Assembly: GCA_951406725.2 (NCBI GenBank)
Contig: OX597827.1
Coordinates: 64,294,001 to 64,358,000, forward strand
Length of the DNA: 64,000 nt
From: Octopus vulgaris
Lineage: Eukaryota
Reading direction: 5' to 3'
In this document: positions 27,696 through 51,862 of the stretch, one piece after another
Numbering within the stretch: the first letter of the stretch is position 1
Layout of the letters: each line of letters starts with the position of its first letter
The notes under the pieces: generated by a model
What the model saw: the letters and a program-made list of their open reading frames with translations, nothing else
Told to the model about the DNA's origin: nothing
Databases searched by the model: none
Program-made: the position numbers and the translations under genes

Positions 27696-27711
27696 ATAAG
27701 AGGCAGATAAA

Positions 27712-27800
27712 ATGGCACCCTGTTTGTGAACCTCAATCATAACAGGTACATAGGCACAGTGTACATCGGATGAACCAGATGATGATTTATTATCAAGTAA
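27712..27800 (+). pseudogene. Short piggyBac transposase fragment
   Basis: Similar to 50281-50365 (YNK.MGGVDRLNQMMSYY region). Confidence 0.55.
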
Positions 27801-28009
27801 TAAATAGTACACAAGCGTTAAGTTGTATGATACACTTGGTCTTCAACAACAGAATGGCACTTCACAATTCTTGTGAACTGACATTACAAGATGGAAATCG
27901 CCAATTTAATAATGACAGTGAGGGACTAGATTTCTTTCGCAAACAATATTATTCCCAGTACTGTAAATAACCCAACAGCAGACAGGAAATCTGCTAGCGG
28001 CAGCGTACA

Positions 28010-30762: not shown

Positions 30763-30769
30763 ACACTGC

Positions 30770-31357
30770 AGGTAGATCAATGAAATTGTTCAACTATATT
30801 AAATAGTTATCCGGACTCAAAGAATATGCACTCATTAAGATGAAGCAAGAGTGGTGCCAGAAGCAAAACAATGAAAATTTCTTAGGAGCTTTAGCTCATC
30901 CTATGTTTGATTCAATAGCCAGAAATGTGGCCGATTCATGCAAAATGGAAATACTCGCCACTAAATTCCAAAACATGAAATGGAATAAATTCCATGTTCG
31001 TGAATATCACACTGTAGCTACATCACTACGTATATTTCAAAATATATTGAAAGTACAAAACATTCTTATAGATGAATTTGTAACAGACGTATGGAATCTT
31101 CTAAATCAAAAACTTCCAAAAACAAACACTTTCGTACTTGAAGGAGTCCCAAGTAGTGGAAAATCATATATTTGTCGCAGTATTGCACAACTCTTTCAAT
31201 ATTCAGAAACAATACAAGGTACATCTCTTTCCCTTTCCAAGATATGTACCAGACCGAAATTTGCCTCTTTTAGGAACCTAACACGACGTTAGAAACGCTT
31301 CAAACCTTCATAAAGTTGGCTGAAGGAGTAGACACTGCAGTATCCGTAAAATTCAAA
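30770..31357 (+). pseudogene. NS1: Parvovirus/densovirus NS1 SF3 helicase fragment (type B)
   Basis: KLPKTNTFVLEGVPSSGKS (Walker A); after a frameshift FPFQDM..ICLF*EP (Walker B) and QTFIKLAEG. Confidence 0.8.
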
Positions 31358-31645
31358 ACCAAACTCCTTTAATGTTTGCCTGTGTAAACGGCAACAGAAG
31401 AATAATTGAGATGTTTATAGATGCAAAGACACTTCCGTGGTTGGACAGCCTTACATGATACTGTGAATAGCCATAAAACGGATGCTGTGACGCTCTTAAT
31501 ATCTCGGAGCAGCGAGGTGAATGTGAAGAACTAATAAGGCCAGACTCTCCTCCATTTGACAGTAGGGTCATGTGAGAAGGAATGGACAGATGCTGTGAAA
31601 GCATTAATGAACCATAGCGCTCTTCAGGTGAGTGCACGAGATATG
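31358..31645 (+). pseudogene. Ankyrin-repeat fragment
   Basis: Same sequence family as the 28-30.7 kb array. Confidence 0.8.
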
Positions 31646-31844
31646 AAGGCTGGGGGGGGTGCAGTTTTGGAATTGAACATGCATGCGGAGCCTGAAATAT
31701 CAGAACAATTGACTGAGAATACCAGAATGGGATATTTTTCATTTATCATTTTCGTATTTCAATTTCCATATTTATGTAATTGTGATGTTTTATGTCCCCT
31801 CTGTTTAGCCCTTTATGGGTAATAAAGACATATATATAGGCTAG

Positions 31845-33005
31845 TCTAGGTGAGTTGTTTGCTACCATGAAATCGGAAGATGCTGCATCTTTCTTGGCAG
31901 CAAAGGTTATTATACCTAGCAATAAGAAGTGTAAAAAAGGGCACCGAATGATAAATTGGTAGCGAATAATGTTTGCTGGCGGTGTAATCGCAAAGGCTGC
32001 AATCAGGAGTTGTCTGTCCGGAAGGGAACATGGCTTGAAGGCTGCACGCTCCCTCTGCAGACCGTAGTCCTTTTTTTGTACTCTTGGGTCAAGGAACTGA
32101 CTACAGTGCGTTATTGTGTAGAAGAACTGGGGATGAGCCACGGTTCAGTTGTGGATTACAACAATTATGTGCGAGAAATATGCGCGCATGACTTGCTAAT
32201 GAACCCAATTGTAATAGGTGGTCCTGGGAAGATTGTCGAGATAGACGAGAGTCTTCTCTAGGAGGAAGTTTAATCGAGGAAGGGTGTTACCTCAGCAATG
32301 GGTATACGGTGGGGTGTGTCGTGAGACCAGAAGTTTTCCTTTATGCAGTACCTTGTACAAAATTGCAAACTTTCGTTCCTTCAAATTTATTTCATTTCAA
32401 ATTACAATAGGAAACTTGATGTGCCTTTTGGGCGTAATTCCACAACCTGCAAACACTGACGCTGACAATTTCGACAGGGACACGCTGCTCAGACTGCAAA
32501 ACATGCTTCATGTGCACAACAGCTATATTCGAACTGGGGATGAGCCACAGTTCAGCTGTGGACTACAACAATTATGTGCGAGAAATATGCGCGCATGACT
32601 TGCTAATGAACCCAATTGTAATAGGTGGTCCTGGGAAGATTGTCAAGACAGTCTTCTGTAGGAGGAAGTTTAATCGAGGAAGGGTGTTTACCTCAGCAAT
32701 GGGTATTCGGTGGGGTGTGTCGTGAGACCAGAGAAGTTTTCCTTTATGCAGTACCTTGTCGGAATTGCGACACACTCGAAGAATGCATCCGTCGCTCAAT
32801 CCTCCCAGGTACCACAATATTTAGTGACCTGTGGAGGGCTTATTCACATATTCCAGAGATCGAGGGATACAATTTGACAGAATGGTGAACCACAGCATCG
32901 AGTTTGTTGACTCCGTTGATAACACACACCCAACAAATAGAGAGTACTTGGGCGTGTTTGAAATGGGGTAACAAGCGACTTTGTGGTACATATCGTTCTA
33001 TGATT
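31845..33005 (+). pseudogene. Merlin (IS1595/ISXO2-like DDE) transposase family A, duplicated and interrupted
   Basis: WRC..C..SVRKGTW, IGGPGKIVEIDES, RKFNRGR..QQWVFGG, ILPGTTIFSDLWRAY. Confidence 0.85.
32360..32532 (+). pseudogene. Helitron RepHel fragment
   Basis: FLQIYF and DRDTLLRLQNMLHVHNSYIR. Confidence 0.65.
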
Positions 33006-33010
33006 GACAT

Positions 33011-33141
33011 ATAAATATATCTTAATTGTAGTGTGAGAAAAGTATATATATTCTAGATTTTTATAAAAATATATTCTTTCAAAAACATTTTATCATCAGA
33101 ATATATATACTTTTCTCACACTACAATTAAGATATATTTAT
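33011..33141. repeat. Near-perfect ~44-bp inverted repeat (hairpin/MITE-like)
   Basis: ataaatatatcttaattgtagtgtgagaaaagtatatatattct ... agaatatatatacttttctcacactacaattaagatatatttat. Confidence 0.85.
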
Positions 33142-33326
33142 TTTAAATCGTTCATCCTTCTCCCCCCCCCCCACAACAAAAATTAGTTTGAAAGAGGGGA
33201 CAGAGAAAGTTCTAAAATCTAACCAATCAGAGCTAACTGACTTCTTACCACGATAGTGAAAATAACTTTATTAGTTATTTTCATTTTATCTTCACCAGTT
33301 GAACTGTGAGATAAAATTAAAAAATA

Positions 33327-34205
33327 ATGTTGTATGAGATAGAAAGTATCGTGAAAGACTTTGATAGTATTTATTCCTTCCTCAAGGACAAAAAGGTCTT
33401 AAGTTCCTCTTCGCCAAATTGTTCGAGATGCCAGAGAGAGATGACTGATAAAACACAATCAAGAAAAAGTATTTCGCTGCCCAACTCACAAAGGGGAAAA
33501 AGAATCAATTAGAAGGAACTCCTATCTCGAAAATAGCAGATTGAAACTACATGATTTCATACATATAATATATTGTTGGGGCAATAACCTAACAATAACA
33601 GCAACAATAGCAATGACTGGATTGTCAAAATGTACCGTTATTCAATGGTTCCAATACATGCGAGATATCTGTAGTAACAATCTGGTCAACAATCCATACC
33701 AAATTGGTGGTGTCGGAAAAGTTGTTGAAATAGATGAAAGTCTGATGTGCAAGAGGAAGTACAATAGAGGGAGAACGCCACAAGAGAGATGGGTCTTTGG
33801 AGGTTATGATAGAGAAGAGAAAAAGGCTTCCTACTCTTCGTAGCTGACCGTTCCTCGGAAACTCTGCTACCCATCATCAAAAAATATATTAGACTGGGCA
33901 CAACAATTCATTCGGATTGCTGGGCCGCCTATAATGGGATTGCAGAAATGGATGTGACACCAAAATACATCCATTTCAAAGTAAACTATTCCCAGAATTT
34001 TGTGGATCCGCTAACAGGTGTACACACAAATTCTGTGGAATGTTACTGGAAAAATGCAAAAAGAAAATTTAAAACGATGATGGGGGTACATTCCACCATG
34101 GTGGACTCGTACCTTGAGTTTCTGTGGAAGGAACAGTATGGACAAAATGAAAACGATTGTGTGATGAATATTCTGAAACATCTTTCAGAATGGTATAAAA
34201 TTTGA
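33327..34205 (+). pseudogene. Merlin transposase family B, near full length, frameshifted
   Basis: IGGVGKVVEIDES..KRKYNRGR..WVFGG; HSDCWAAY; NFVDPLTGVHTNSVECYW; upstream CCAAT box; 5' part repeated at 51482-51860. Confidence 0.85.
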
Positions 34206-34968
34206 AGGGGTATGATGTCACGCGTGTATTGAAACCATTGAAAAGAAAATTTAAAACGATGATGAGGATACATTCCACCATGGTGGACTCGTACCTTGAG
34301 TTTCTGTGGAAGGAACAGTATGGACAAAATGAAAACGATTGTGATGAATATTCTGAAACATCTTTCAGAATGGTATAAAATTTGAAGGGGTATGATGTCA
34401 CGCGTGTATTGAAACCATTGAAAAGGAAATTTAAAACGATGATGAGGATATATTCCACCATGGTGGACTCGTACCTTGAGTTTCTGTGGAAGGAACAGTA
34501 TGGACAAAATGAAAACGATTGTGTGATGAATATTCTGAAACATCTTTCAGAATGGTATAAAATTTGAAGGGGTATGATGTCACGCGTGTATTGAAACCAT
34601 TGAAAAGAAAATTTAAAACGATGATGAGGATACATTCCACCATGGTGGACTCGTACCTTGAGTTTCTGTGGAAGGAACAGTATGGACAAAATGAAAACGA
34701 TTGTGTGATGAATATTCTGAAACATCTTTCAGAATGGTATAAAATTTGAAGGGGTATGATGTCACGCGTGTATTGAAACCATTGAAAAGAAAATTTAAAA
34801 CGATGATGAGGATACATTCCACCATGGTGGACTCGTACCTTGAGTTTCTGTGGAAGGAACAGTATGGACAAAATGAAAACGATTGTGTGATGAATATTCT
34901 GAAACATCTTTCAGAATGGTATAAAATTTGAAGGGGTATGATGTCACGAGTGTATTGAAACCATTGAA
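34059..34968. repeat. Tandem repeat, 180-182-bp unit, ~5 copies, built from the Merlin 3' end
   Basis: ORF offsets 34382/34564/34746. Confidence 0.95.
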
Positions 34969-37207
34969 TAACAGAAATTAGAACGTGACATTTCTGCTAA
35001 GCTGCCGCAATTGCTTAATTAAGACTTAAATTGAAAGGTGCAAATATGTGACGAGGTTGAAAAAAAATGTATTTATCTAATTGACTATTTTGCTACACTG
35101 TCATAAAATCGCTACAATATCATGAAAAAATTAAGGTATGTACAACATATATTATTGTATACATATATACAGTATCTACAATAAGTTAGTACACACAACG
35201 ATTTTTTAAATTTTTACTTCTTAGAACTTTATTTTTTCGTAGGATTTAAATGAAACTCGATGTAAACCTAGCCATATATGTAAATTTAAATATGCATAAA
35301 CGTTAGGGTTCAAATTTGTTGTTTATTACAAATTATAGGAGAAAATCCATAGTCACAGTACAATAAATTAGTACACAGCTATGGAAGTCACTAATCATGA
35401 ATAAATATTTACTTAAATAGCTATAAATTGCAGAACTTTCTGTTGGCACCTTTTTATTGTACCCTAATAAATAACCAAAGGCATTTCATTGGCTGTTTGT
35501 TTACATTACGCTGCTATTGCTTGGATCTATTGCTACCAAAGTTTCTCTCATATTATTCTTGGAAATGGCTCCTCGTGGCAATGAATTACATGAAAAAACT
35601 CGTGAAACTATTGTTAATTTATTCAAGAGTGGTCATTCATATACGGAAATAAGTGGCAATGTAAATATCAGCCGAAATACGGTAACAAAAGTTGTTCAAC
35701 GGTACAAAAAAGCTGGAACCGTCACAAATGGCTGCCGTCCCGGTCGACCAAATAAGTTTTGTGATCGAACTAAGAGGCGCATGAAACAACTTATAGAGGG
35801 AAGCAGACGTCGGAGTGCTGCTAGCGTCGCAGAAGAAATTTCACACAGTTTAAACGTAACTGAGTGCTCAGACAGTGCGCAACATTCTCCACGAAGACGG
35901 GTTTAAAGGCTGCATGCCCCGAAGGAAGCCTCTGCTGAAAACTTCCCACAAAAAGAAGCGTTGTGAATTTGCTAATAATCATAAAGACAAAGATATGCAG
36001 TTTTGGGACAAAATCCTTTGGTCTGACGAGACGAAAATAAATCTATTCGGCTCAGATGGCGTTAAGCGTGTGTGGCGACGAAAAGGGGAGGCTTACAAGG
36101 ATAAGTGTGTCGTGCCAACTGTCAAGCATGGAGGTGGGAGCTTGATGATTTGGGGGTGTATGAGTGCCAAAGGAGATAAACGACTTGCTTTCATCGAAGG
36201 AAAAATGGATTCAAAACTATTGCCAGATATTGGAGGAAAACATGTTACCAAGTTTAACAAGTGTTGGCAGACGTGGAGTTTTCCAGCAGGATAACGACCC
36301 TAAGCACACGTCGCGGCCTACGAAGGCGTTCTTAGAAAGTAAGCGAGTGAATACCTTACCATGGCCGAGTATGTCACCTGATTTGAACCCAATAGAGCAT
36401 CTGTGGGAGCATCTAAAACGGAAAATTGCAGGGAAAAATCCGAGAAATATTAACGAAAACAAGGAGGTCATCAAATGTAAATGGAACGCAATTCCGGCAG
36501 ACACATGTCGTAAACTAGTGGAACCAATGCCTAGGAGGTTGTCTGCTGTTATTGATAACAATGGAGGCCATACAAAGTATTAAAAATAGGCTTATTTGTT
36601 TAAAGCGCTCCTGTGTACTTACTTTTTGTTACTTGTTCTAAATGTTTTTGTTTAATTATTCTACATTGAAAAGATATTTGTTCCTTCATAGTTTATAAAG
36701 TTATTAAACCACTACATGGCTATGTTCACATCGAGTTTCATTTAAATCCTACGAAAAAAATATAGTTGTAAGAAGTAAAAATTTTTTAAAAATCGTTGTG
36801 TGTACTAACTTATTGTAGATACTGTATATACACTTTTAAAAATTATTTACTTTGTTCAAAAAATATTAATATTAATTAATTTTCAAGAATTATTTAATTT
36901 ATATAATTAATTCATTAATTTTATTCTGTAAAATAGCAATTCATTTATCTGTAAATCCGCGAGGAAAGCGACTATGTAATTTTTTTGTGTAAAATTGAAA
37001 ATGTTATATACACACACACACACACAAACACATATTTTTTGTGAAATCCAACACCTTTTTGTCTTAAAAAAGCAGAAATGTATCTGAAAAAATCCGGGGG
37101 GGGGGGGTTAACGCGCATGCGCAAGTCACCTCGTTGGATCTCGAGTAGAGAACCTACGTCTGGTGCACGCGCCCGTGCAACCGGGACCACTACAATAGAC
37201 AAGTACC
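34935..37207 (-). mobile_element. Truncated Merlin-type element in the opposite orientation, hosting the Tc1 insertion
   Basis: Minus strand reads SVIQWFQYTRDI (cf. TVIQWFQYMRDI at 33632); TIR-like ccgggaccact..aagtacc ends at 37207, as in the MITEs at 58150 and 60812. Confidence 0.55.
35170..36824 (+). mobile_element. Full-length Tc1 (DD34E) transposon with IR/DR-type ends; transposase 35565-36583 has two frameshifts
   Basis: TA-CAGT..ACTG-TA ends, >100-bp TIRs with inner repeats; GRP, ILWSDETKINLFG, TVKHGGGS, FQQDNDPKH, SPDLNPIEHLW. Confidence 0.95.
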
Positions 37208-37583
37208 TGATTGACATATCTCGGCGAATTCATGAGGTGGTGCAGACACGAGAAATGTGACCTTTGGGAGGAATTGCTGGCAAACATTAGAAATTTCTCC
37301 AATTATTGTTAATCCTTTCGGTACTAGATTAGCTGAGGATTACTTGACATTTTATATCTGCTGTAATATTTGCAGCTTTAATAAATTGTTATAGTATGAA
37401 ACAATTGTACTAAATTACCGGATCTATTCTTGTTGCTTATATATATACATATATATATATATATATGTGTATATTATATATTTATATATACTTTCATCAT
37501 CGTTTGAACAAGCAGACACTTAATTTTTCTCAGATAGAAAGACATCAACCCGGAATCAAAACCCAATAATCGAATTTGAAGAC

Positions 37584-39165
37584 ATGATGTATTATACAAT
37601 CTTTGATAAAATTGAAGATGGTGACGCTGAAGGTGTGAAAACCTTAATAGAGAAGCACCCAGTTAAAATTAACCACCATGATGTAAGGGGACGAATTCCT
37701 TTAATGTATTCCCATGTAAGGGACAACACAAGAATAATTGAGATGTTTATAGATGCAAGACACCTCTGTGGTTGGACAGCTCTACGTAATGCTGTGTATA
37801 GACGTCATCTTGAAGCCGTGAAAATCTTAATATCTCGGAGCATCGAGGTGAATGTAAAGAACTAATAACTAATATGTCCAGACTCCTCTGGAAACAACAT
37901 ACATACATATAACTTGAATCTGAAGATCTTACGATCTCGGGGTAGCGACGTGAATGTGAAGAACAAATATGGCCAGACTCCTCTCCGTTTAGCAGCAGGG
38001 TCATGTAAGAAGGAATGGACAGATGCCGTGGCAGCATTAATACAACAGAATACTGTTCAGGAGAATCCACGAGATAAGAAACTCTCTGGAAACTATATAC
38101 ATATATATAACTTGAAAATGAAGATCTTACGATCTCGGAGAAGCGAGATAAATGTGAAGAACAAATATGGCCAGACTCCTCTCTGTTTGGCAGCAGGGTC
38201 ATGTAAGAGGGAATGGACAGATGTCGTGGCAGCATTAATACAACAGAGTACCGTTCAGGAGAATCCACGAGATAAGAAACTCTCTGGAAACAATGTACAT
38301 ATATATAACTTGAAAATGAAGATCTTACGATCTCGGAGCAGCGAGATAAACGTGAAGAACCAGACTCCTCTCCGTTTGGCAGCAGGGTCATGTAAGAGGG
38401 AATGGACAGATGTCGTGGCAGCATTAATACAACAGAGTACTGTTCAGGAGAATCTACGAGATAAGAAACTCTCTGGAAACAATGTACATATATATAACTT
38501 GAAAATGAAGATCTTACGATCTCGGAGCAGCGAGATAAACGTGAAGAACCAGACTCCTCTCCGTTTGGCAGCAGGGTCATGTAAGAGGGAATGGACAGAT
38601 GTCGTGGCAGCATTAATACAACAGAGTACCGTTCAGGAGAATCCACGAGATAAGAAACTCTCTGGAAACAATGTACATATAGATAACTTGAAAATGAAGA
38701 TCTTACGATCTCGGAGCAGCGAGATAAACGTGAAGAACCAGACTCCTCTCCGTTTGGCAGCAGGGTCATGTAAGAGGGAATGGACAGATGTCGTGGCAGC
38801 ATTAATACAACAGAGTACCGTTCAGGAGAATCTACGAGATAAGAAACTCTCTGGAAACAATATACATATATATAACTTGAAAATGAAGATATTACTATCT
38901 CGGGGCAGCAATGTCAACGTGAAAAACAAATATGGCCAGACACCTCTCTGTTTGGCAGCAGGGTCATGTGAGAAGGAATGGACAGATGTCGTGGCAGCAT
39001 TAATAAAACATAGCGCTGTTGAGGTGAATGCACGAGATAAGGGTCGCACACATCTATACTGTGCCTGTTCAAGTGGATACACAAACACAGTTGGCATGTT
39101 GAGTAAAATGGCATCGATGTCAATGTGGTTGACAAAGGTGGTAACACACTACTGAGGTAGTTCAG
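37584..39165 (+). pseudogene. Ankyrin-derived locus; ORF 37914-39155 consists of ~6 tandem 180-186-bp units
   Basis: NVKNKYGQTPL.LAAG repeats; shares its 5' leader with the copy at 29570. Confidence 0.8.
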
Positions 39166-39169
39166 GAGC

Positions 39170-39958
39170 GAAGGTATGATATGGTGTCTCTAATGCTGAA
39201 CCAGGATCATGAAGCTACTGTTCACCGTCCCAGGGTCTCTAGGGCCCATACCCTCAACGTTGGCACACTGAAAGGTAGGTCTGGCGAGATTGTTGAGATG
39301 CCTGAACGGAGATGTGTTGATATATGTTGCATCCAAGAAGTGAGGTGGAGAGGCTTCTGCAAGGTTCCTCACAGGCAAAGAACACAGGTATAAGATTTTC
39401 TGGTCAAGGAACACTGATGGGGCTGGGAGCATGGGTATACTTCTCGCTGAAAAATGGGTAGATAAGGTAATTGAGGCAGTTCAGGAGCGAAAGTATAATG
39501 CGGTGTGTATGATGCTGAACCAGGATCACGAAGCTACTGTCGACCGTCCCACGGTCTCTAGGGCCCATACCTCCCACACCCTCAACGTTGGCACACTGAA
39601 AGGTAGGTCTGGCGAGATTGTTGAGATGCCTGAACGGAGATGTGTTGATATATGTTGCATCCAAGAAGTGAGGTGGAGAGGCTTCAGCTAGGTTCCTCAC
39701 AGGCAAAGAACACAGGTATAAGATTTTCTGGTCAAGGAACACTGACGGGGCTGGGAGCATGGGCATACTTCTCGCTGAAAAATGGGTAGATAAGGTAATT
39801 GAGGCAGTTCAGGAGCGAAGGTATAATGCGGTGTGTATGATGCTGAACCAGGATCATGAAGCTACTGTCGACCGTCCCACGGTCTCTAGGGCCCATACCT
39901 CCCACACCCTCAACGTTGGCACACTGAAAGGTAGGTCTGGCAAGATTGTTGAGATGCC
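39170..39958 (+). pseudogene. RTE LINE endonuclease N-terminus, tandem ~328-bp repeats
   Basis: TLNVGTLKGRSGEIVEM..RR.VDICCIQEVRWRG..GILLAEKWVDKVIE. Confidence 0.85.
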
Positions 39959-40755
39959 ACAAATACGACTTCATTAAGAAAATTATGAAGAAATGCAACA
40001 GCACAGACATGGGGGACATTATAAGATTCTGCAAAAACACGCCGAAACTACAATACCAAAATAACTGGAGCAACATCTACAGAAACACTCCAAACATTAA
40101 CAATAATTACGGCCGCAGCCACAAATATTGAAACATTGAGCATGCCCATATGAGAACAAATCAGAGACAAGAAACAATTCTTCTCATATAACACAAACAA
40201 CTACCATAACGTTCAAACATCGCTGGATATATACGACGAGTGGCTACACCACCACAACATAGACGCAGAAAAATTCGGTAGACACACATTCGAAGTCTGT
40301 CATAAACTTAATCCCAAAATTAACGGCTTGCATATTACAGGAGCAAGTAACTCGGGTAAAAGCTACGTCTTAAGAAGCATCAGGAACGGATTGATGAACT
40401 GCGGCAGAATGAGATGCCAAGCCAGCGAAAATATCACGTTCGGCACGTGCATCGACAAAACATTAATATACACCGACGAAATGTGGTTCACAACAAACAA
40501 CGTTGAAGAAGCGAAATGTATTCTAGAAGGCACAGATACATACATAAGCATTAAGCATCAGGTGGAAAGAATATTAAAAAGAACTTCGTCATTATCAACT
40601 TCCATTCAAGACCCATGGCATGTTGTTCTACAGGAAGAACAAGCTCTCAAAAATAGACTTTTCATTTACGAAACAAGTCGCAGCATGCCATAGCTAAAGG
40701 ACTGGGGCAAAGTCAAACTTAACCTGTTAATGTGGTTGACCATCTGGCGAAGAAA
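39957..40755 (+). pseudogene. NS1: Parvovirus/densovirus NS1 SF3 helicase fragment (type C)
   Basis: PKINGLHITGASNSGKS (Walker A), LIYTDE (Walker B), EEAKCILEG (B'), ALKNR..KLNLLMW. Confidence 0.8.
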
Positions 40756-41930
40756 AGCTTCCAGAATTTCTACATCACTCTCTCAGAACTATTACCAAGA
40801 TTTATCTCTACTGAATTCCAGTGGTTAACACAAAACTTCTTTGCTATTTTTACCTTTTTCTTTTCTAGTTCCTGTTGTGTATGCATACATACAGATGTAT
40901 GTGGGAGTGGACACGAGTGTCAATGGCTTTTGTGAACTGCCTCATGTACCGACGGTGTACTGTCGTTTTGAACACCCAGGGAGGGCATACTGCGGATCGT
41001 CATAACTTTCAGAAAAACCGACATTTTTATGATGAAATTTTCTATGAATATGTCTTATACCATGTAGATTCCAAATATACAAAATTTTTCCAGAAAATTG
41101 TTTTAGGAGTGGTGGGGGAGGCGTTTCGGAAAATTCACCCCGTTGAGTCCACCTCAACTTTCAGGAAAATGGATATTTTTTAATGAAATTATCTACAAAT
41201 AGACCTTGGACTACATAGTTTCCGAGCATATAGGAGTTTTTTTTTTTGGGGGGGGGGGACAATTGGGGGTTATTTTTTTAGAATAGTTTCCTTCTCAAGG
41301 TTATTTTGGAACAATTAATCCATATTTGTTACATTTTCTCCACTTTGTGCATCTGTAGATTTCTATTCAAGCAACAGGCAATGATGGTAAAGGAAGCCCC
41401 CACCAGAAAACTCATGCTGAAAATAACAGCTGTCTGGTACACAAATACATGTTAAGACAACCTATCTGCTGTATATGATTTTTTCCCCTACTTTAAGTAA
41501 ATACCCAGATAAATGGTTCTTATAGAAAGGCAGAAGACACCAGAAGCAAAAATAAAATCTGGTGCAGTACAACAAAAGTAAAGAGAAAGAAATGTCTATA
41601 CAAAACTGGTTGACTGACAGGGTAGTGTGCTTTTCGAGTTGAGTGTCGGTTTTTCTGAGTTGGTGGTGATGATATTGTGAGTTATTGAAACTTTGTTATT
41701 GTTGAACGATCGCCTCTCCGCTAAATTCTTAGAATTCCTTCACCTCCCTCCTGACCGGCTTGTCTCCCTTGCCAAAAGGGCAGTGCATAGTGCAGAAATT
41801 TTATCCAATCAGGGACAAGCATTTTTTTTTATGCTGACGTGTCAATGAAGAATTCAGTGACTGGTTGATGTGGAACCGTCATTCAAATCCAAAAGTGGAA
41901 CAATGTTAACTTGGTTTAATTATTTGACAT

Positions 41931-41962
<32 letters not shown>

Positions 41963-42515
41963 AAAAAATTTAGAAGTGAGCAAGAAATGAAGTCGCACTG
42001 GCTTAACAACTAAAACTTTATGAGGGCTATAAGCCACCCAATGTACGATACAGTAATGAAGAAAGTATTAGAATGCATAAAATTAAAAACACTTGTGCCA
42101 TTTAAAGAAAAATTCGAGAGCATGAACTGGGAACTTTTTGATAATAACAAAAATGAATATATGGACAAAGATATGTCACTGAAAGTCTTCAAAAGTATTT
42201 TAATGACACAAGACATTTGCGAAGCGCTATTCGTACAAAACGTTTGGGAAACTTTAACAAAGAAAAAACCCAAAAGAAACCTTTCAGTTCTGAGAGGATT
42301 ACCAAACACCGGCAAATCCATGATAGCACACACGTCAGCACCATTCAAGGTACCAGCAGCTTTCCGTTTCAGAATCTGATAAACGTAGAAATTGGTCTAA
42401 TTGAAGAGCCAAACTTCACCCTCAAAACATTACAAACATTTAAAAAATTAGCCGAGGGAACTGATACGGAAGTGTTAGTTAAATTCAAGCAAGATCAAAT
42501 TAAACAGAACTCATA
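41963..42515 (+). pseudogene. NS1: Parvovirus/densovirus NS1 SF3 helicase fragment (type A)
   Basis: KPKRNLSVLRGLPNTGKS; FPFQNL..IGLIEEP..QTFKKLAEG; aligns by eye with type B. Confidence 0.8.
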
Positions 42516-42524
42516 AAAGTTATA

Positions 42525-43165
42525 TGTCCAGGAAAAGAAAAAAATGACTCTAGAGATGGTATACATAGCTATCAATAAATAGAATGACAGTCTATTGCAT
42601 GACATTGATAACACCCCATCAGCAGAACGGGTTCGAACACACAGGGTATTACCCAAACATACGGAAATCTACTAAATCGATCAGTTAAACTTGGAAACTA
42701 TACGCTCTAAATATAAAGCTGACATTTACGGTCCTCGACAAATCTTACATGAGTCGTTCGAGGACATATGTCGAAATTTCATCCCACAAACAGCCGAAAA
42801 AACAAAGACGACCATTTAAGGTAGGTGGTGTCTTGCATTCAGGTAGGCTGCATAAATGTGTGTGGCCTGTCGTCGAACTGGAAGCAAGGGCGCTTCCTAA
42901 ATGACGTCAGGTCACACCATTTGCAAATACGTGACATGAGCGTTACACCAGTACGTGAAGAACCAAATAAGACCCCCTCATTGACTCAGGAAGAAATAAT
43001 TTTTCTCGCATGAGGAAATAGGTACGGCACTGTGGTAGTGTAGTTTAGAACTGAAGGAACTGCTTGGAGGATGGCAGCAAGAACTGTAAAAACAGACAAA
43101 GTAATTCTTTTCCACTCATATATAGGAAGAAAAACAACCAGAATCAAGGTGGAAATATTTTGCAC
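42525..43165 (+). pseudogene. L1/Tx1-like LINE pieces (ORF1 end, ORF2 start, ORF1 internal), recurring at 47250-47700, 48547-48775 and 49247-49550
   Basis: IQVGCINV(R/C)GL resembles the APE N-terminal motif and follows the ORF1 stop; repeated blocks. Confidence 0.55.
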
Positions 43166-44300
43166 AGTTGACTGCCCTAGATGCCATTTACAATGTACAC
43201 TCCGAAAAAATACAAGCATCTTCCGATGTAGAAGGACTGTTCGCCGTCGAAGACAAAGGCCAACGCAATGTGGATATTCTATATCGCTATACAACAACAC
43301 TTTTTTTGGAGCGGAGTCAGATACCACTCTGTAAAGTCCTGTTATTTATAAATTACTTCCTTACAGACTGTTGGTCGCATGCATTAGTCATGGAAAATTT
43401 AAACATTTCATATCCAACCTCAATTGATTGGCGATCCTTCTGCTTGGAGGTTTGTCAGCATTGGGTTGAAAATTACCAGGACCAAATCGGTGGACCAGGA
43501 GTTGAAGTAGAGATCGATGAGACGGTTATTGTAAGAAGAAAGTACAATCGTGGAAGACTCCCAAAAACTATCTGGCTTTTCGGTGCGGTAGAGCGAGTAG
43601 CCAAAACAAAAGTTTTGATATCTCTTTCATCTGAGTGTGGTGAAGAGGAAAGGCGAGATGCCGCCACACTGATCCCCTTAATTACCCGATATATACGCCA
43701 AGGGTCCATAGTATATAGTGATTCTTGGAAGTGCGTCAGGGTAGGGGGGGGGAGGGAGGCTGAATGTATATAAATATCATTTCAATGCAACTTTCAATAT
43801 AATTAGAAGACTACTAGCTATAATGCCTCACACACCAAGATACCATCGCTTCTGTTTCACACTGAACAACTACAATGAGGAAGATGTACATAGAATTAAT
43901 AATTTGGACCATATACGTTACATGGTTGTGGGAAAGGAAATATCCACCACTGGAACTATACATCTTCAGGGATATATTCACACTGTTGTTAGAGTTAGCC
44001 TTAAGGCTATGAAAAAAAGGATTTCTCCGAGAGCACATGTCGAGATGGCAAAAGGATCAGAAAAACAGAATATAGATTACTGTCAGAAAGAAGGAGATTA
44101 CTTCACCAAAGGAGAGACTATTGAAGGGGAAATTTAGAAATTCCGCATCAACCACAATGAAAATTTTGTTGATCCCACAAACGCATCGGTGCACACACAG
44201 ACGATAGAGAGATTGTGGGGGTCAGTTAAGAGATCAGTTGTTTGCCCAGGGATTCGTGCCTGTTATTTAAAGCAATACCTCGCCAAGTTCCTACTTATGG
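43165..44300 (+). pseudogene. Merlin transposase family D, split by the CRESS Rep insertion
   Basis: IGGPGVEVEIDET..RRKYNRGR..WLFG..YSDSW, resumes INHNENFVDP..HTQTIERLW at ~44140. Confidence 0.85.
43823..44137 (+). CDS. rep: CRESS-DNA virus (circovirus-like) Rep, N-terminal HUH endonuclease domain only
   Basis: RCR motif I CFTLNN, motif II HLQGY, motif III YCQKEG; TATA-like tatataaa at ~43768; no helicase half. Confidence 0.85.
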   Translation: MPHTPRYHRFCFTLNNYNEEDVHRINNLDHIRYMVVGKEISTTGTIHLQGYIHTVVRVSLKAMKKRISPRAHVEMAKGSEKQNIDYCQKEGDYFTKGETIEGEI

Positions 44301-44660
44301 AAACCAAATGGACACAAACAAATATTGGAACACAATCATTTTCACATAATGTGGAAATGTAGTTCTCAACGTTGTCCATCAAATGACAGCACTTGGCAGA
44401 AAACTATCCAGGAATACTGGAAGGCTACAGGGTAAAAGCATAAGATACCAAACGCACAGCGTGTAAAATTTCCATCTGCATAAGCTAATTACTTTTGCAA
44501 ACCCCCTAGGCAATTCTTATTAACTACAACAGATGAAACAATTCAGCAACTTAATGATTGGTGTCATGAAGACTACATGGAAACCAACAGACAAACTTCA
44601 CCTAATAAACCATCAGTCTCTTTCCAACAACATTTCAGGGAAATCAATGAAGCTCTTTAA
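44300..44660 (+). pseudogene. Probable parvovirus NS1 N-terminal HUH nuclease fragment
   Basis: One frame reads EHNHFHIMW (HUH) ... NYFCKPPR (Y..K), with two stops. Confidence 0.5.
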
Positions 44661-44849
44661 CTACATAAAATATCTTTAGGGTTACACATAATTTTTTTCT
44701 CTTATTTCTTAATTTACTTTCTTTTATATAATTTGTAATATCGAACGGATAATGTAAACGTTTATCTTCATATTCTAGTCTGTATAATTTGTAACATCTT
44801 TGTTGCACATTCGAAAAATTGTTTTGTTGCTACCCACTGTTGGGTATGC

Positions 44850-45205
44850 AAGCTGCAGGCAAAAGCATGTCTGCTGAACCGATGTTAGGAGATAAAAGAC
44901 TGGACCACCTTCTACACAAGAGGAAGGAAGTACACTACTGTAGAGGTGGGGTTTACAAGTGAAGAAGAAGCAATGAGACACGCCACTATGGTCTTGAAAA
45001 CAACTAGGTGGGTACTCTTACCTACCTATTGCAGAAGACGAGCCGCGAGAGTAAGGATTGGAAAAGAGCCACCAGAAAAGAACGTATAAAGGCTGGTAGC
45101 AGCCATAATATACAATTGCAAAGATGTGGTGGAAATTCTCAAAGTAGAAAAGTCAAGAGATATCAACTGGTGGGGTTATGGTGTGAAGCCACAAGCTCCG
45201 ACGGG
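44850..45205 (+). pseudogene. LINE ORF1 fragment (paralog of the 43000 and 45756 pieces)
   Basis: RGRKYTTVEVGF..MVLKT..VLLPTY resembles GNRYGTVVV.F..TVKT..ILFHSY. Confidence 0.45.
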
Positions 45206-45209
45206 TCCC

Positions 45210-45485
45210 AGCAATCCTTCTAAAGGGGCTCTAACAAGACTACTTTAGATTCTCTTCCAGAGTCTTCCTTGCAACTGGGAGGTCTGCATATGTCATTTCT
45301 ATAATGGAGGTAGTAGAGTAATTGTTAAAAATTATAAACCTGTCTCTCTAACTTCACCTGTCAGCAAAGTCATGGAATACATTGTCAGGAAGAAACTCCT
45401 TGCATTCCTTGTAAATAATGACTTGCTCCCTGACACCCAGCATGGCTTCCGCTCAAGAAGAAGCTGCCTTACACAGCCTTTGTAA
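45210..45485 (+). pseudogene. CR1/Jockey-group RT fragment
   Basis: NYKPVSLTSPVSKVMEYIV..QHGFRSRRSCLTQ. Confidence 0.75.
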
Positions 45486-45537
45486 CATGCTTTGAGAAGA
45501 GCCATGAAAAGTCAACCTGCAACTGTGTGTAATAATC

Positions 45538-45585
45538 AGGAGAAGCCATGCCACGGTGAAATTTGTGGAAAAACTTGTTCCTTGG
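45538..45585 (+). pseudogene. Degenerate C2H2 zinc-finger remnant; similar pieces at 49637-49680 (+) and ~58700-58760 (-)
   Basis: EKPCHGEICGKT and EKPHHSEICGGT versus the consensus EKPYHCEICGKTF. Confidence 0.5.
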
Positions 45586-46374
45586 TCTGGGATGGATTTT
45601 CAATATAATCCACATAATTTCAAATCCTTTAAATACAAGCTATAAGGTCATGTCCAAAAAGTGGTGGTGAGTAAGAGAATTAATCCTTTAGCATTTAAAC
45701 AGGCTACATCTGGCCCCATCACTCGTTTTATGTTCAAGCTGGCCAAATTCAGCCAATGCCTGCAAAAAATGAAACCGTGGAAAAGTGTCTGGCGCCCATT
45801 TGGGACAAAATTGTATATACAGGAAAGAGAGTAAGAAGTGCTACAGTTGAGGTGCATTTCACAGATGCCGAAACGACAAAGCAAATATCTACGCAGACAT
45901 TGAGGAATGATGAAATAATCCGCATTCAGCTGAGAGGGACTGAGTGCTCGTGTGTCAGTAGAAGGAAGAAGACCGAGGTGTTTCAAGTGTTGGAGAGAAG
46001 GGATATGTAATGCCAGAATGTGGAAAAGTAAAAAATGGCAAAGAAGGTAGATGTTCCTCCCGCAAAAGAGAAAAAGTATGGAAACTAACAAGGAGGCGAA
46101 AAAAATGGGGGGAAAAAAAAACCTGAGAAAGAGAAAGAAAAAGGGAGTTACCGTTATGAAAGAGTGTACTTGGAGGACCAGAATGAAAGGAGTTGCAAAC
46201 AAGAACCTATATCTCTGGCACAGGCTCGCTGAATTTCTTCAGATACCATCTGAAGAGCAATATAGGGCTGAAGAGAAGACAACTGTCACAGGGGATATAC
46301 AAGAAAAGATGGAAGGATGTTGTGAGGAAGTTGGGAGTGACTGTCCCTACTTAACCCTTTCATCACTAACCCGG

Positions 46375-46795
46375 CCAAGAGAACCTATTGTTATTTAAAT
46401 GTAAAAAAACCGGCGATTGGTATCGATTAGACTATAATAATTACAAATCGCTAATTATGAAGGAACTACAAAAAAAATATAAGATCACATCTATAGAAAA
46501 CCTGAAGGATATTAACCGAAAAATAAAAGAAGTAATGACCAAACTGGATCTACTAGGTAAGACTGAACCTCTCAAACCTCAGGAGCCAAGGACTAACATC
46601 AAGGACCATAAAAAAGGACTCCCGGAAAACAGGAGTAAGACTAATATGCCCAACTAAGTCAGATATAGGAAGACTTAGCAAAACCATTCTGGACAGTTAT
46701 TCCATGGATTAAACCTCACATTCCACTCAATTTATGGATCAATACTGATGATGTTCTAGAGTGGTATAACTCCATTATTGATAGAAATGGTTGAC
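46375..46795 (+). pseudogene. Penelope-like element RT N-terminal fragment (second family)
   Basis: KC.KTGDWY..Y..LI..KYK, IKDHK and LWINTDDVLEWY match KADKT / LKDHK / QW.NT..VI.WF. Confidence 0.6.
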
Positions 46796-46799
46796 CGAC

Positions 46800-47660
46800 C
46801 TAGCAGAGCCAGAGCCTTAAAGTTACCATCCAGGCAGCACCAGAAATGCTAGAAGAAATTGTAGAGAACATCAACTTCAGTGAAGAGATCACTTTGCGAG
46901 TGGTGGTAGAGGGGCAAAAACCCCGGTGCTACAAATGGGCCACATTTGAGTGGACTGCCCCACCCGCAAAAAAGGAAGAAGGAAGCGGTGATGTGTTGAA
47001 AGGCGAAAGGATAAAGAAGGGAAAAAACAACAGGACGCCGACAGAAGAAAACGATTTCACTCCAGTGAGACAAAGAAAAACTCCTAAAAGAAGCACAAAA
47101 ACCCCAAGCACAAACAAGAAAAAAAAATACCCCACCCCACCACAAGAACCGCCCCCCCCCCCCCCTGCATCCAACTCTAGACAACCACCCCTACCCCTCA
47201 GTGCTGAACAATTTCCTCCCCACCCAGACTCCACCCTATCACCCCCACAATGTCCAGGAAAAGAAAAAAATTACTCTAGAGATGGTATACAAAGCTATCA
47301 ATAAATAGAATGACAGTCTATTGCATGACATTGATAACACCCTATCAGCGGAACGGGTTCGAACACACAGGGTATTACTCAAACATACGGAAATCTACTA
47401 AATCGATCAGTTAAACTGGGAAACTATACGCTCTAAATATAAAGCTGACATTTACGGTCCTTGACACAACTTACACGAGTCGTTGTTCGAGGACATATAT
47501 CGAAATTTCATCCCACGAACAGCCGAAAAAACAAAGACGACCATTTAAGGTAGGTGGTGTCTTGCATTCAGGCTGGCTGCATAAATGTGCGTGGCCTGTT
47601 GTCGAACTGGAAGCAAGGGCGCTTCCTAAATGACGTTAGGTCAAACCATTTGCAAATACG
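46800..47660 (+). pseudogene. L1/Tx1-like LINE ORF1 C-terminal half plus ORF2 start
   Basis: LRVVVEGQKPRCYK (eroded zinc knuckle), K/P-rich tail, then INVRGL. Confidence 0.55.
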
Positions 47661-47699
47661 TGACATGAACTTTACCAGTATGTGAAAAACCAAATTGGA

Positions 47700-48546
47700 A
47701 ATATTTTGCACAGTTGACTGCTCTAGATGCCATTTACAATGTACACTCCGAGAAAATACAAGCATCTTCTGATGTGGAAGGACTGTTCGCCGCCGAAGAC
47801 AAAGGCCAATGCAATGTGGATATTCTATATCGCTATACAACAACACTTTTTTTCGAGGGGAGTCAGATACCACCCTGTAAAGTCCTGTTATTTATAAATT
47901 CCTTATAGACTGTTGGTCGCATGCATTAGTCATGGAAAATTTAAACATTTCATATCCGACCTCGATTGATTGGCGATCCTTCTGCTTGGAGGTTTGTCAG
48001 CATTGGGTTGAAAATTACCAGGACCAAATCGGTGGACCAGGAGTTGAAGTAGAGATCGATGAGACGGTTATTGTAAGAAGAAAGTACAATCGTGGAAGAC
48101 TCCCAAAAACTATCTGGCTTTTCGGTGCGGCAGAGCGAGTAGCCCAAAAAAAAGTTTTGATACCTCTTTCATCTGAGTGTGGTGAAGAGGAAAGGCGAGA
48201 TGCCGCCACACTGATCCCCTTAATTACCAGATATATACGCCAAGGGTCCATAGTATATAGCGATTCTTGGGCTGCATATAACTCTTTTAGAAATCTCGGC
48301 TATACCCACTTCCGCATCAACCACAATGAAAATTTTGTTGATCCCACAAACGCATCGGTGCACACACAGACGATAGAGAGATTGTGGGGGTCAGTTAAGA
48401 GATCAGTTGTTCGCCCAGGGATTCGTGCCTGTTGCTTAAAGCAATACCCCGCCAAGTTCCTATTTACAGAAAGCATCAAACCTACAGCCAAGAGAATACA
48501 CGTATTCTTATTGGCAGCAGCAAGTCTTTATCCTGGCCCGAGATAA
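47700..48546 (+). pseudogene. Merlin transposase family D, uninterrupted copy (ORF 47932-48546); third partial copy at 48775-49247
   Basis: VEIDET, SDSWAAY, INH..FVDP..HTQTIERLW. Confidence 0.9.
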
Positions 48547-49794
48547 TTTCATCCCACGAACAGCCGAAAAAACAAAGATGACCATTTAAGGTAGGTGATG
48601 TCTCGCATTCAGGTAGGCTGCATAAATGTGCGTAGCCTGTCGTTGAACTGGAAGCAAGGGCACTTCCTAAATGACGTCAGGTCACAGCATTTACGTATAA
48701 GAGACCTGAGCAGTACACCCACACTCATATCTGGGAAGAATAACAACCAGAATCAAGGTGGAAATATTTTGCACAGTTGACTGCCCTAGATGCCATTTAC
48801 AATGTACACTCCACGAAAATACAAGCATCTTCTGATGTGGAAGGACTGTTCGCCGCCGAAGACAAAGGCCAACGCAATGTGGATATTCTATATCGCTATA
48901 CAACAACACTTTTTTTCGAGGGGAGTCAGATACCACCCTGTAAAATCCTGTTATTTGTAAATTACTTCCTTACAGACTGTTGGTCGCATGCATTAGTCAT
49001 GGAAAATTTAAACATTTCATATCCGACCTCGATTGATTGGCGATCCTTCTGCTTGGAGGTTTGTCAGCATTGGGGCTGAAAATTACCAGGACCAAATCGG
49101 TGGACCAGGAGTTGAAGTAGAGATTAATGAAACAGTTATTGTAAGAAGAAAGTATAATTGTGGAAGACTCCCAAAAACTATCCGGCTTTTCGGTGGGATA
49201 GAGCGAGTAGCCAAAAAAAAAAATTTTGATACCTTTCATCTGAGTGTGGGCTGCATAAATGTGCGTAGCCTGTCGTCGAACTGGAAGCAAGGGCGCTTCC
49301 TAAATGACGTCAGGTCACAGCATTTACGTATAAGAGACCTGAGCAGTACACCAGTACGTGAAGAACCAAATAACACCCCTCATTGACTCAGGAAGACAGA
49401 GGAGGAAATAGGTACGGCACTGTGGTAGTATAGCTTAGAACTGAAGAAACTGCTTGGAGGATGGCAGCAAGAACTGTAAAAACAGACAAAGTAATTCTTT
49501 CACACTCATATCTGGGAAGAAAAACAACCAGAATCAAGGTGGAAGTATTTTGTGTAATGTGATTAATGAAATGCTTGCAAATAAAAACCTTTTTCCTTTT
49601 TTAAACCTTATTCAAAGTGAATATGAGGTCGGCCTGAGAGAAACCACACCACAGTGAAATTTGTGGAGGAACTTTAACCTTAGTTCAAAAAGACTTTCAA
49701 AAATGGTCCCAAAGTATGGGAGTCAAATAATGAAACAAGGAGTTCAGTACTCTAATAAGAAATTTATACGTGTATGTATTTATTACACATGCAT

Positions 49795-50780
49795 ATAGAA
49801 TGATGGTGGGCTATAAAGGCCGGGTACGTTTCTGACAGTATATGCCCCGAAAGCCCACAAAATGGGGGATCAAAGTTTGGAAGATTTGCGAATCAAATAC
49901 TGGGTGCTGCTCAGGATTCGAATTTTATACAGGCAAAAGAGACAATCATGTAAGTCAGCATGGCCTAGGGTACGATGTGGTCCGGAATTTATCACTTCCA
50001 TACCATAACCAGGGCCGTATATTATTTTATTGACAGATTTTTCAGTTCGATCAAACTTGCAGAGAATTTAGATACTGTGGCAACACATACATGTGCTACA
50101 GTGATCGCTAGTAGAAAAGGACTGCCGTTGGATATAAAAAAAAAGGTGAAATGGCTTCTGCATATCCAAGTCTAAAAGGAATTAATCACCGCGATATTGC
50201 CATCAACGGCAGAAAGGAAATTTGCTAGCGACCGCGATCAATTGTCTGTCTACCTGTGCACGGCCACATGTGGATGAAAATGGCACGCCGTTTGTGAACC
50301 TTAATTATAACAAGTAGATGGGTGGAGTAGATCGGCTGAATCAGATGATGTCTTACTATCCAGTTGGCAGACCGGGGAATAAATGGTCATGATAACTGGT
50401 TTGGTATATAGTAAACATGAGTATTACTAATGTGTTTATACTATATGCCAAATCAGGACCGGCTCGGAAGCGATGCGACCATCTACAGTTCCGAGCAGAT
50501 GTAGTAACGCAACTAAGAGCTGGTTATTCCTAAAAAAAAAAAATAACCGTAGGGAGAAAAAGCAATGCCTGCCAGAGGGATATCCTTCTGAATTCAGCCG
50601 ATCTCCATAAATTAGAAAAAAATGGAGGGTCGCAAAAGGCAGTGTCGTGAATGCCTTCATCAAACAAGGAAAGCTCCTAGTGGAAGGGCTGTTGAAACAA
50701 CTTTCCAATGTGCATTCTGCAAGGTTGCATTATGTAGAGCAGGGTGCTTAACAAATTTTCACGATATGAATATTGTTTGA
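49795..50780 (+). pseudogene. piggyBac transposase (catalytic core plus C-terminal Cys-rich domain), degenerate
   Basis: QYMPRKPTKWGIKVW, FYTGK, DRFFSS, MGGVDRLNQM, C..C...TTFQCAFCKVALC. Confidence 0.85.
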
Positions 50781-51058
50781 TTTGTATATATGTGTGATTT
50801 GATTTTATAAATATTTTCAAAATTACTTCGTTTTTCTTTTTCTTTGTGTAATTTTAATTATAAATAAATATATTCTTGCATTATTTATTCATTATTGTTG
50901 TTTTTAAAAAAGAAATCAAACCAAATCTGCACAAATGACCACCACCGCGATCACATCCACCAATCAGCATGACCACTGACCACCACCGAAACCGCGCGTA
51001 ATTCAAAGTTTGAATGTTCTTCACTTTGATATCAACACGTGCGAAAAAATTTTCAATA

Positions 51059-51482
51059 TGGCTTCTGCATATCCAAGTCTAAAAGGAATTAATCACCGCG
51101 ATATTGCCATCGCCACGGCGATGTGATACCAGAAGATATTTTTTAGTGGCAGTGGAAGATCGGACAGCCGACACCCTTTTACAAATTATACAAGAGCATA
51201 TATTGCCTTGTACAACCATAATTTCCGACCTTTGGCGTTCGTATAACACGCTCAATCAGCTAGGATACAGGCATTTGACCTTGAATCATTCAATAAATTT
51301 TGTTGATCCGGTAAGATTTGCCACAACCCACCATATAGAATGTTTATGGAAGCATGTGAAGAATCGCAACAAAAGAGAAAATGGAACAGCCCGAAATTTA
51401 CTTCAGACCCATCTCATCGAATTCATGTGGCGTTATGAATTTAAGGACGAAATATTCGGAAAGTTATTGGAGCAAATTCGAC
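51059..51482 (+). pseudogene. Merlin transposase family E (start fused to C-terminal half)
   Basis: FLVAVEDRTADTL..ILP.TTIISDLWRSY..LNHSINFVDP..IECLW..EFMWR. Confidence 0.85.
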
Positions 51483-51862
51483 AGTTTGAAAGAGGGGACA
51501 GAGAGAGAGTTCTAAAATCTAACCAATCAGAGCTAACTGACTTCTTACCATGTGCTCTTGTATACTTTATTTTCACCAGATGAACTGTGAGATAAAATTA
51601 ATTACGTCTGTTAAATATTATTAAATATGTTATATGAGATAGAAAGTATCGTCAAAGACTTCGATACCATATATTCCTTCCTAAAGGAGAAAAATTTTGA
51701 GCAGCGTTTCTCCGCTTTGTGCAAAATGCCAGAGAGAAATGACTGATAAAACATAAAGAAAAGATATTTCGGTGCCCAACACACAAAGGGGAAAAAGTAT
51801 CAATTAGGAAGAAATCCTATCTTGAAAATAGTAAATTGAAATTACATAACTTTATGCACTTC
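51482..51862 (+). pseudogene. Merlin family B upstream region and 5' coding end (diverged copy of 33185-33560)
   Basis: Shared agtttgaaagaggggacagag..ctaaccaatcagagc and MLYEIESIVKDFD. Confidence 0.8.

What the first reader, a model, noticed from the sequence alone, without database searches (positions are those of the whole stretch)
43730..44140. Circovirus-like Rep endonuclease, with a TATA-like leader, inserted into one copy of a Merlin fragment
Seen: an open 104-aa ORF with all three RCR motifs, truncated before the helicase. It replaces ~40 bp of Merlin D between gattcttgg and ttccgcatc. The sister copy at 48262-48330 is uninterrupted, and its tttagaaat reappears at the right junction. 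There is no TSD. Inference: a recent CRESS virus capture added after the local duplication, so the locus kept acquiring sequence, and a pre-insertion reference exists inside the window.
Basis: partly seen in the sequence, partly recalled or inferred. Interest (0 to 1): 0.8.

Follow-up and report, generated by a model that had tools for sequence, protein, structure and literature searches.

The report
Viral Rep fragment in octopus transposon
A small piece of a circular DNA virus was patched into a broken transposon in an octopus genome, inside a stretch of same-direction virus and transposon scraps, and a relative of that virus gave rise to a repeat family spread over many chromosomes.

Summary
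Confirmed and larger than reported. A 404-bp CRESS-virus piece (TATA leader plus about 101 Rep codons; Viral_Rep E 9e-23) interrupts one Merlin copy, with no TSD. The 8-mer at the right junction carries two changes private to the sister copy (0 of 26 other copies), so it is host DNA, supplies the stop codon, and dates the capture after those changes. Contigs of 4 of 4 runs (two organism labels) span the insert; one label has a frameshift, so it is a fossil. It sits in a 24-kb block where 12 of 12 recognised virus, transposon and ankyrin fragments face one way, like a unistrand piRNA cluster (no small-RNA data). The same virus lineage integrated elsewhere. One ori-rep-cap-ori copy has two TAGTATTAC hairpins, and a neutrally evolving satellite carries the first 35-38 Rep codons (124 matches, 33 loci, 13 contigs). 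Codon-position patterns show the satellite and the window copy were separate integrations. The relative's helicase is not circovirus-type, so 'circovirus-like' is too narrow. Ten literature searches of the held library found no paper on octopus CRESS elements.

The parts
43729..44132 (+). CRESS-virus insert (94-nt leader plus about 101 Rep codons); single copy in the genome
43767..43775 (+). TATA-like box of the viral rep leader
   Evidence: a TATA box also precedes the ATG in the C15 copy and the satellite units
43823..44137 (+). 104-aa Rep endonuclease ORF; motif I 43856-43870, II 43961-43972, III 44078-44089; last codons and stop made by the junction
44133..44140 (+). 8 nt of host Merlin sequence kept at the right junction; carries two changes private to copy B; followed by a 16-nt loss with 1 nt of overlap
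43142..43728 (+). Merlin (DDE_Tnp_IS1595) copy A, left of the insert
44141..44306 (+). Merlin copy A, right of the insert
47688..48546 (+). Merlin copy B, uninterrupted sister; 48271-48309 is the pre-insertion reference
   Evidence: (E 5.6e-14)
48722..49249 (+). Merlin copy C, ends before the insertion site
42524..42968 (+). Left part of the local duplication (94% to 47250-47695)
27400..51800 (+). One-direction block of ankyrin, parvovirus NS1, Merlin, Tc1, CRESS Rep, RT and piggyBac fragments; SINE-core-free and microsatellite-poor
40154..40693 (+). Parvovirus NS1 fragment
   Evidence: E 6.1e-14
42014..42376 (+). Second parvovirus NS1 fragment (78% relative at 27558-27692)
30807..31289 (+). 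Third SF3 helicase fragment, parvovirus NS1-like
   Evidence: PPV_E1_C E 4.4e-7; Parvo_NS1 E 0.0016, below its cut-off

Best explanation
A non-coding endogenous viral element. A CRESS DNA virus of an octopus-associated lineage infected the germ line. A linear piece of its genome (promoter plus Rep nuclease domain) was patched into a break in Merlin copy A by error-prone end joining, after the local duplication. That gives no TSD, loss of target bases and a retained host patch. SHOWN: viral identity, junction anatomy, order relative to changes shared with copy B, presence in two organism labels, a frameshift in one, one-direction context, and further integrations of the same lineage (the C15 ori-rep-cap-ori copy and a rep-leader satellite). 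INFERRED: end joining as the mechanism (about 0.8), and that the 24-kb block is a unistrand piRNA-cluster-like locus read from the minus strand, which would make the fragment an antisense record of the infection (about 0.5).
For: Viral_Rep E 8.9e-23. One DNA copy, and the only place matching PF02407 or aa 39-101. Private 8-mer in 0 of 26 other Merlin copies that cover the site; A and B are sisters at 95/87. Contigs span 43689-44170/44215 with 0 substitutions in 4 of 4 runs from 4 studies; B runs have a 2-bp deletion. Strand test: of 148 minus-strand ORFs of 50 aa or more, only the antisense of the ankyrin repeat hit Pfam, with 0 passing stretches. Plus-strand hits give 12 fragments, or 9 counted conservatively; two-sided p 0.0005 or 0.004. 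The block has 0 SINE-core hits against 10 in 0-27.4 kb, and 9.4 bp/kb of microsatellite against 26 and 33 in the flanks. 13 small runs guessed to be RNA hold 67-97% of the words. A similar co-oriented Merlin/parvo/Tc1 mosaic lies at C29:19.15 Mb. Unidirectional EVE/TE loci make antisense piRNAs in Aedes (10.1101/127498, passages). piRNA clusters exist in molluscs (PMC6128900, listing and passages).
Against: No small-RNA or stranded data were available. The RNA label of the runs is a guess, and I could not lay a silent control. The 51.8-64 kb flank also has 0 SINE-core hits. Local duplications reduce the number of independent fragments. The four other CRESS loci examined lie in ordinary, mixed-strand DNA, and only 1-2 of 6 other parvovirus loci look like mosaics. 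An empty allele of copy A cannot be told from copy B in contigs (joint 43728-44141). X1 is nearly identical to the window and may be its source. Organism B differs from the window at only 17 of about 4,800 positions, against 8 of about 4,900 for X9 (table 8), so it gives a weak lower age bound.
Confidence: 0.7

Rival explanations
1. Inert graveyard: the same end-joining capture, but the block is only heterochromatic debris; its one-way orientation comes from local duplication and chance, with no small-RNA role.
For: Tandem duplications are common in the block. No small-RNA evidence. Other CRESS copies lie in ordinary DNA.
Against: 9 of 9 unrelated source families face one way, p about 0.004. 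There is continuous cover by contigs of runs guessed to be RNA.
Confidence: 0.3
2. Rep-mediated integration: the viral Rep nicked its origin and joined the strand to a look-alike host site, so the insert starts at the nick.
For: The insert starts 124 nt before Rep residue 11; the C15 copy's nonamer ends 110 nt before it. The first bases resemble the 3' arm of the C15 hairpin. The C15 copy itself is longer than one unit, origin to origin.
Against: Leader similarity to the C15 origins is not above chance (1358 and 198 of 2000 shuffles). No hairpin at the left junction (z 1.14). Origin distances in 56 of 72 viral contigs range 48-213 nt. Most Merlin copies carry the same 5 letters at this site, so they may be host or microhomology. 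The right end looks like repair.
Confidence: 0.12
3. Domesticated mini-Rep or a Replitron-like helicase-less transposon.
For: Open 104-aa frame with all three motifs and a TATA leader; Replitrons are Y1 Reps without a helicase (PMC10288648, passages).
Against: Single copy. The stop codon is host-derived. The close relative continues. Frameshift in organism B. No terminal direct repeat seen at the junctions. The insert is too young for an open frame to mean selection.
Confidence: 0.04
4. Assembly chimera or viral contamination.
For: The region is repetitive, and one homopolymer differs from all runs laid.
Against: Single contigs span both junctions in 4 of 4 runs, at single-copy depth in the two DNA runs (21 and 50).
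Confidence: 0.02

Closest known systems
Endogenous CRESS/circovirus-like Rep elements in eukaryotes (Liu et al. 2011, PMC3198968; passages read)
   Same: Rep fragments in host genomes, often from several invasions of similar viruses; usually under 10 copies, near 60 in salmon louse and Varroa.
   Different: The word 'mollus' does not occur in its main text (supplements not seen). Here there is a pre-insertion sister copy 4.5 kb away, and over 120 copies of a 5' piece in tandem arrays.
Geminivirus-related DNA of Nicotiana (review PMC3187698, passages and reference titles only)
   Same: Repeats of ssDNA-virus rep-derived DNA multiplied in a host genome after few integrations.
   Different: Plant, geminivirus. 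The octopus arrays keep only leader plus 35-38 codons, mixed with AT-rich 12-13/24/37-bp and 32-bp subrepeats, at 33 or more loci. Details of the Nicotiana repeat's structure are recalled, not read.
EVE-bearing unidirectional piRNA clusters of Aedes aegypti (10.1101/127498, passages)
   Same: Virus and transposon fragments interspersed in one orientation over tens of kb.
   Different: There the EVEs come from RNA viruses next to LTR elements, and piRNAs were measured. Here they are ssDNA viruses among DNA transposons, and piRNAs are untested.
Replitrons (PMC10288648, passages)
   Same: Y1 HUQ-type Rep without a helicase.
   Different: Replitrons are multi-copy, with short terminal direct repeats, a second domain and GYxxK in motif III. 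This is one truncated copy with YCQK.
Circoviridae Rep (PCV2; PDB hits)
   Same: Nuclease motifs I-III; the relative on C15 has an ambisense layout with TAGTATTAC on the rep strand.
   Different: The lineage's helicase does not match solved circovirus Reps. Its motifs look nanovirus/CRESS4-5-like (motif pattern recalled; groups described in PMC5923481, passages).

Membership tests
Cressdnaviricota EVE | HUH Rep nuclease with motifs I-III | tested here: met
   best environmental relatives 40-54% identical
Cressdnaviricota EVE | Integrated in host DNA, heritable | tested here: met
   junction-spanning contigs in 4 of 4 runs, two organism labels
Cressdnaviricota EVE | SF3 helicase, capsid and nonanucleotide hairpin | tested here: not met
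   absent from the window fragment; present in the relative on C15 (capsid only a lead, score 0.90)
Circoviridae | Circovirus-type helicase (PF00910, match to PCV2 Rep) | tested here: not met
   tested on the C15 relative, not on the window copy, which has no helicase: no circovirus hit at E<=10; no Pfam hit; PF00910 finds 0 in the genome. Rep chimerism could uncouple the domains
Circoviridae | Rep phylogeny inside the family | tested here: inconclusive
   45-row nuclease tree mostly unresolved; only P0001+P0035 at 100/99; no named references
Replitron / Helitron-like element | Multiple copies with defined termini | tested here: not met
   one copy; no direct repeat at the junctions; array ends share no terminus in the 19 stretches shown
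Unistrand piRNA cluster | Co-oriented TE/virus fragments | tested here: met
Unistrand piRNA cluster | Long precursor transcript antisense to the fragments | tested here: inconclusive
   contigs of runs guessed to be RNA cover 30 and 28 of 30 bins; no strand, no silent control
Unistrand piRNA cluster | Dense 1U-biased piRNAs | not testable with these tools
   no small-RNA reads were laid
Virus-derived satellite DNA | Tandem units of viral origin evolving neutrally | tested here: met
   69 full ungapped units (14 gapped and 51 partial set aside): differences 33/35/33% by codon position, 11 of 69 with stops; window vs units 35/15/50%

The most novel reading that the evidence does not exclude
Octopus keeps a record of an undescribed CRESS-virus lineage in three forms: a more-than-unit-length integrant, a satellite family built on the viral rep promoter and first codons and spread to 33 or more loci without transposon ends, and an antisense fragment trapped with parvovirus pieces in a piRNA-producing locus. 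That locus would act as heritable immunity against DNA viruses in a cephalopod.
Probability: 0.3. Interest if true: 0.8.

Novelty: new variant of a known kind. Interest (0 to 1): 0.62.

Why it matters
It ties an environmental CRESS lineage to a cephalopod host, something metagenomes alone cannot do. It gives a rare before-and-after pair, 4.5 kb apart, for how ssDNA virus pieces enter a germ line. It shows a dispersed animal satellite with a traceable viral origin. It also names a specific 24-kb locus and strand where one small-RNA library would test whether molluscan piRNA clusters store DNA-virus sequence.

Tried and rejected
Insert begins at the Rep nick site: not supported. Nonanucleotide-like hairpin in the satellite leader: no fold (z 1.56). 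Window copy as parent of the satellite: rejected; 69% nt identity with a coding-type pattern, and leaders not alike (510 of 2000 shuffles). Shared termini or TSDs of the arrays: none seen. Family placement by nuclease tree: unresolved, and my helicase labels there were rough regular expressions that left most top hits unclassed. PF00910 search missed the helicases later found with the C15 query, so family searches here are lower bounds; the PF01057 and NS1 searches also found only 1 of the window's 3 fragments. PHROGs gave one unknown-function hit among 20 proteins. One row of alignment A2 had wrong coordinates and is junk. In one search the queries came from the window, so its 16/0 count is not an independent test, and short 'LINE_EN' hits are probably a SINE overlapping that ORF (inferred from coordinates). 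Earlier-findings look-ups were empty. Literature: searches showed no paper on octopus CRESS elements or on a CRESS-derived animal satellite; the library lacks most subscription papers, and I opened no supplements. PMC6011040 does not mention viruses in its main text. Automatic annotation already labels the C15 protein 'Replication associated protein'.

Full report
OBSERVATION. The ORF at 43823-44137 encodes 104 aa with motifs FTLNN, HLQG and YCQK. It matches Viral_Rep at E 8.9e-23 and 8 solved Rep sequences. It interrupts a Merlin/IS1595-type transposase fragment whose two halves are 95-96% identical to an intact copy B. 412 bp stand where copy B has 39 bp, with no TSD. The genome is G000 (2.8 Gb, 227 contigs). 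A protein 96% identical to one of its ORFs over the matched part is labelled Octopus vulgaris.

JUNCTIONS AND ORDER. Among 26 other Merlin copies covering the site (27 examined, 1 too short), none has copy B's TTTAGAAA, which differs from the family by two changes. That 8-mer ends the insert in copy A, an overlap reached by 0 of 367 pseudo-ends and 29 of 20,000 shuffles. It is therefore host DNA, it supplies the stop codon, and the capture came after those two changes. Copies A and B are sisters (95/87 in a 24-row tree; 362 of 371 and 156 of 163 identical), and the duplication extends into flanking DNA. The viral part is 43729-44132. Its closest relative over aa 51-102, P0035 (79%), continues past the break. 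Loss of target bases, a retained patch and no TSD fit error-prone end joining (inference from established repair signatures). The idea that the insert starts at the Rep nick site was tested and not supported.

REALITY AND AGE. The insert DNA occurs once in G000. 19 of 24 listed runs hold half or more of the words of 43400-44450, under two organism labels. In 4 of 4 runs laid (4 studies), one contig spans the insert with 0 substitutions. X1 reaches 30 letters past 44140, the others 72-75, and X1 may be the window's source. Both organism-B runs have a 2-bp deletion at 43835, so the frame is not kept. B differs from the window at only 17 of about 4,800 positions, 11 of them in one 1-kb piece, so the lower age bound is weak. 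The upper bound is the 3% between copies A and B. An empty allele cannot be told from copy B.

CONTEXT. From 27.4 to 51.8 kb every recognised fragment is on the plus strand: ankyrin repeats, three parvovirus NS1-like pieces, four Merlin pieces, Tc1, the Rep, an RT and piggyBac. Of 148 minus-strand ORFs, only the antisense of the ankyrin repeat hit Pfam, with 0 passing stretches. That is 12 of 12 (p 0.0005), or 9 of 9 counted conservatively (p 0.004). The block has positive AT skew, no SINE cores and few microsatellites, though the right flank also lacks SINE cores. Parvovirus NS1 matches are rare genome-wide: 8 by family and 18 by protein, both lower bounds. Of 6 other parvovirus loci examined, C29:19.15 Mb is a similar mosaic and C9:9.5 Mb has 3 co-oriented hits. 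The 4 other CRESS loci examined are ordinary. This anatomy resembles unidirectional EVE-bearing piRNA clusters of Aedes (10.1101/127498, passages), and molluscs have piRNA clusters (PMC6128900, listing and passages). Small RNAs were not tested; the runs' RNA label is a guess.

THE LINEAGE ELSEWHERE IN THE GENOME. (a) C15:38.11 Mb holds an ori-rep-cap-ori copy. Two TAGTATTAC hairpins lie 2,144 bp apart (z -4.73 and -2.41). The rep starts with nearly the same N-terminus, has an internal gap over motif II, and keeps a helicase. An opposite-strand, arginine-rich ORF is a capsid lead (score 0.90). (b) Its helicase finds 9 matches at 8 loci, and a 64% relative labelled O. bimaculoides. It matches no solved circovirus Rep at E<=10. 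Its motifs look nanovirus/CRESS4-5-like (recalled pattern), but Reps are often chimeric (PMC5923481, passages), and the link to the window copy is indirect, through P0035 and the shared N-terminus. (c) The first 35-38 residues find 124 further matches at 33 loci on 13 contigs (126 matches in all, from 150 of 173 candidates scored). An exact 20-mer occurs 54 times, control 0. 18 of these loci were fetched at 10 kb or more. They are arrays of about 0.3-15 kb made of a TATA leader, ATG and 35-38 codons, AT-rich 12-13/24/37-bp subrepeats and a 32-bp repeat, with no shared ends. Among 69 full units, differences fall evenly on codon positions (33/35/33%; about 90% identity between arrays; 11 with stops). 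Against the window Rep they fall 35/15/50% at 69% identity. So the arrays are neutral satellite, and the two diverged while still viruses: separate integrations. Over aa 1-35 the four best of 259 proteins are an array unit, P0157, P0007 and the C15 N-terminus. How the arrays spread is not shown; circular-DNA amplification with end-joined reinsertion is my preferred guess (about 0.5).

MECHANISM AND VERDICT. Best reading: a dead viral fragment captured by repair after a local duplication (high confidence), inside a locus that probably works like a unistrand piRNA cluster (even odds). It is a Cressdnaviricota EVE, not shown to be Circoviridae, and not a Replitron (PMC10288648, passages). Endogenous Reps are known (PMC3198968, passages), and multiplied geminivirus DNA is known in Nicotiana (PMC3187698, passages). 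Ten searches of the held library showed nothing on octopus CRESS elements or on a CRESS-derived animal satellite; that is limited evidence of novelty, and supplements were not read. Novelty: new variant of a known kind. Interest 0.62.

Noticed in passing
L128 4865-7060 (G000:C15:38.11 Mb): More-than-unit-length CRESS integrant, ori-rep-cap-ori, two TAGTATTAC hairpins 2,144 bp apart; rep has an internal gap; flanks are ordinary SINE-rich DNA.
   Followed up: yes
L105-L124 (e.g. G000:C5:120.82 Mb, C3:31.62 Mb, C18:34.61 Mb): Dispersed satellite arrays whose unit holds a viral rep leader and first 35-38 codons; some arrays switch strand internally (L108, L112) and include a separate 32-bp repeat of unknown origin.
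   Followed up: yes
L136 (G000:C11:25.61 Mb), L137, L138, L139, L140, L142, L143: Further CRESS helicase fragments; L136 also has a capsid-like ORF (34% to the C15 one) on the opposite strand and a close relative labelled O. bimaculoides.
   Followed up: partly
L186-L187 (G000:C29:19.14-19.16 Mb): Second co-oriented mosaic of Merlin, parvovirus NS1, Tc1 and RT fragments; candidate for the same kind of locus.
   Followed up: partly
window 27967-39152: Ankyrin-repeat fragments duplicated many times (189-bp and about 1.25-kb units), interleaved with a parvovirus-like helicase piece; host or viral origin unknown.
   Followed up: no
window 40154-40693; G000:C19:23.97 Mb, C19:2.60 Mb, C20:32.07 and 34.47-34.49 Mb: An octopus family of parvovirus NS1 fossils, up to 83% identical to the window copy.
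   Followed up: partly
window 46804-47304: 166-aa plus-strand ORF resembling a LINE ORF1 tail with a decayed zinc knuckle (recalled pattern; no Pfam hit).
   Followed up: no
window 43744: All four runs laid have one G fewer in the G run than the assembly.
   Followed up: partly
window 62646-63201, 60800-61046, 33011-33141, 58150-58237: Self-complementary (inverted-repeat) stretches, the largest 556 bp at 78%.
   Followed up: no
P0007/P0157 (unnamed public contigs): A frameshifted Rep of the same lineage, with an N-terminus close to the satellite unit; probably another host fossil.
   Followed up: partly
window 20659-23866 (-) and 18819-19151 (+): LINE RT/endonuclease and a mariner HTH outside the block, in opposite orientations.
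   Followed up: no
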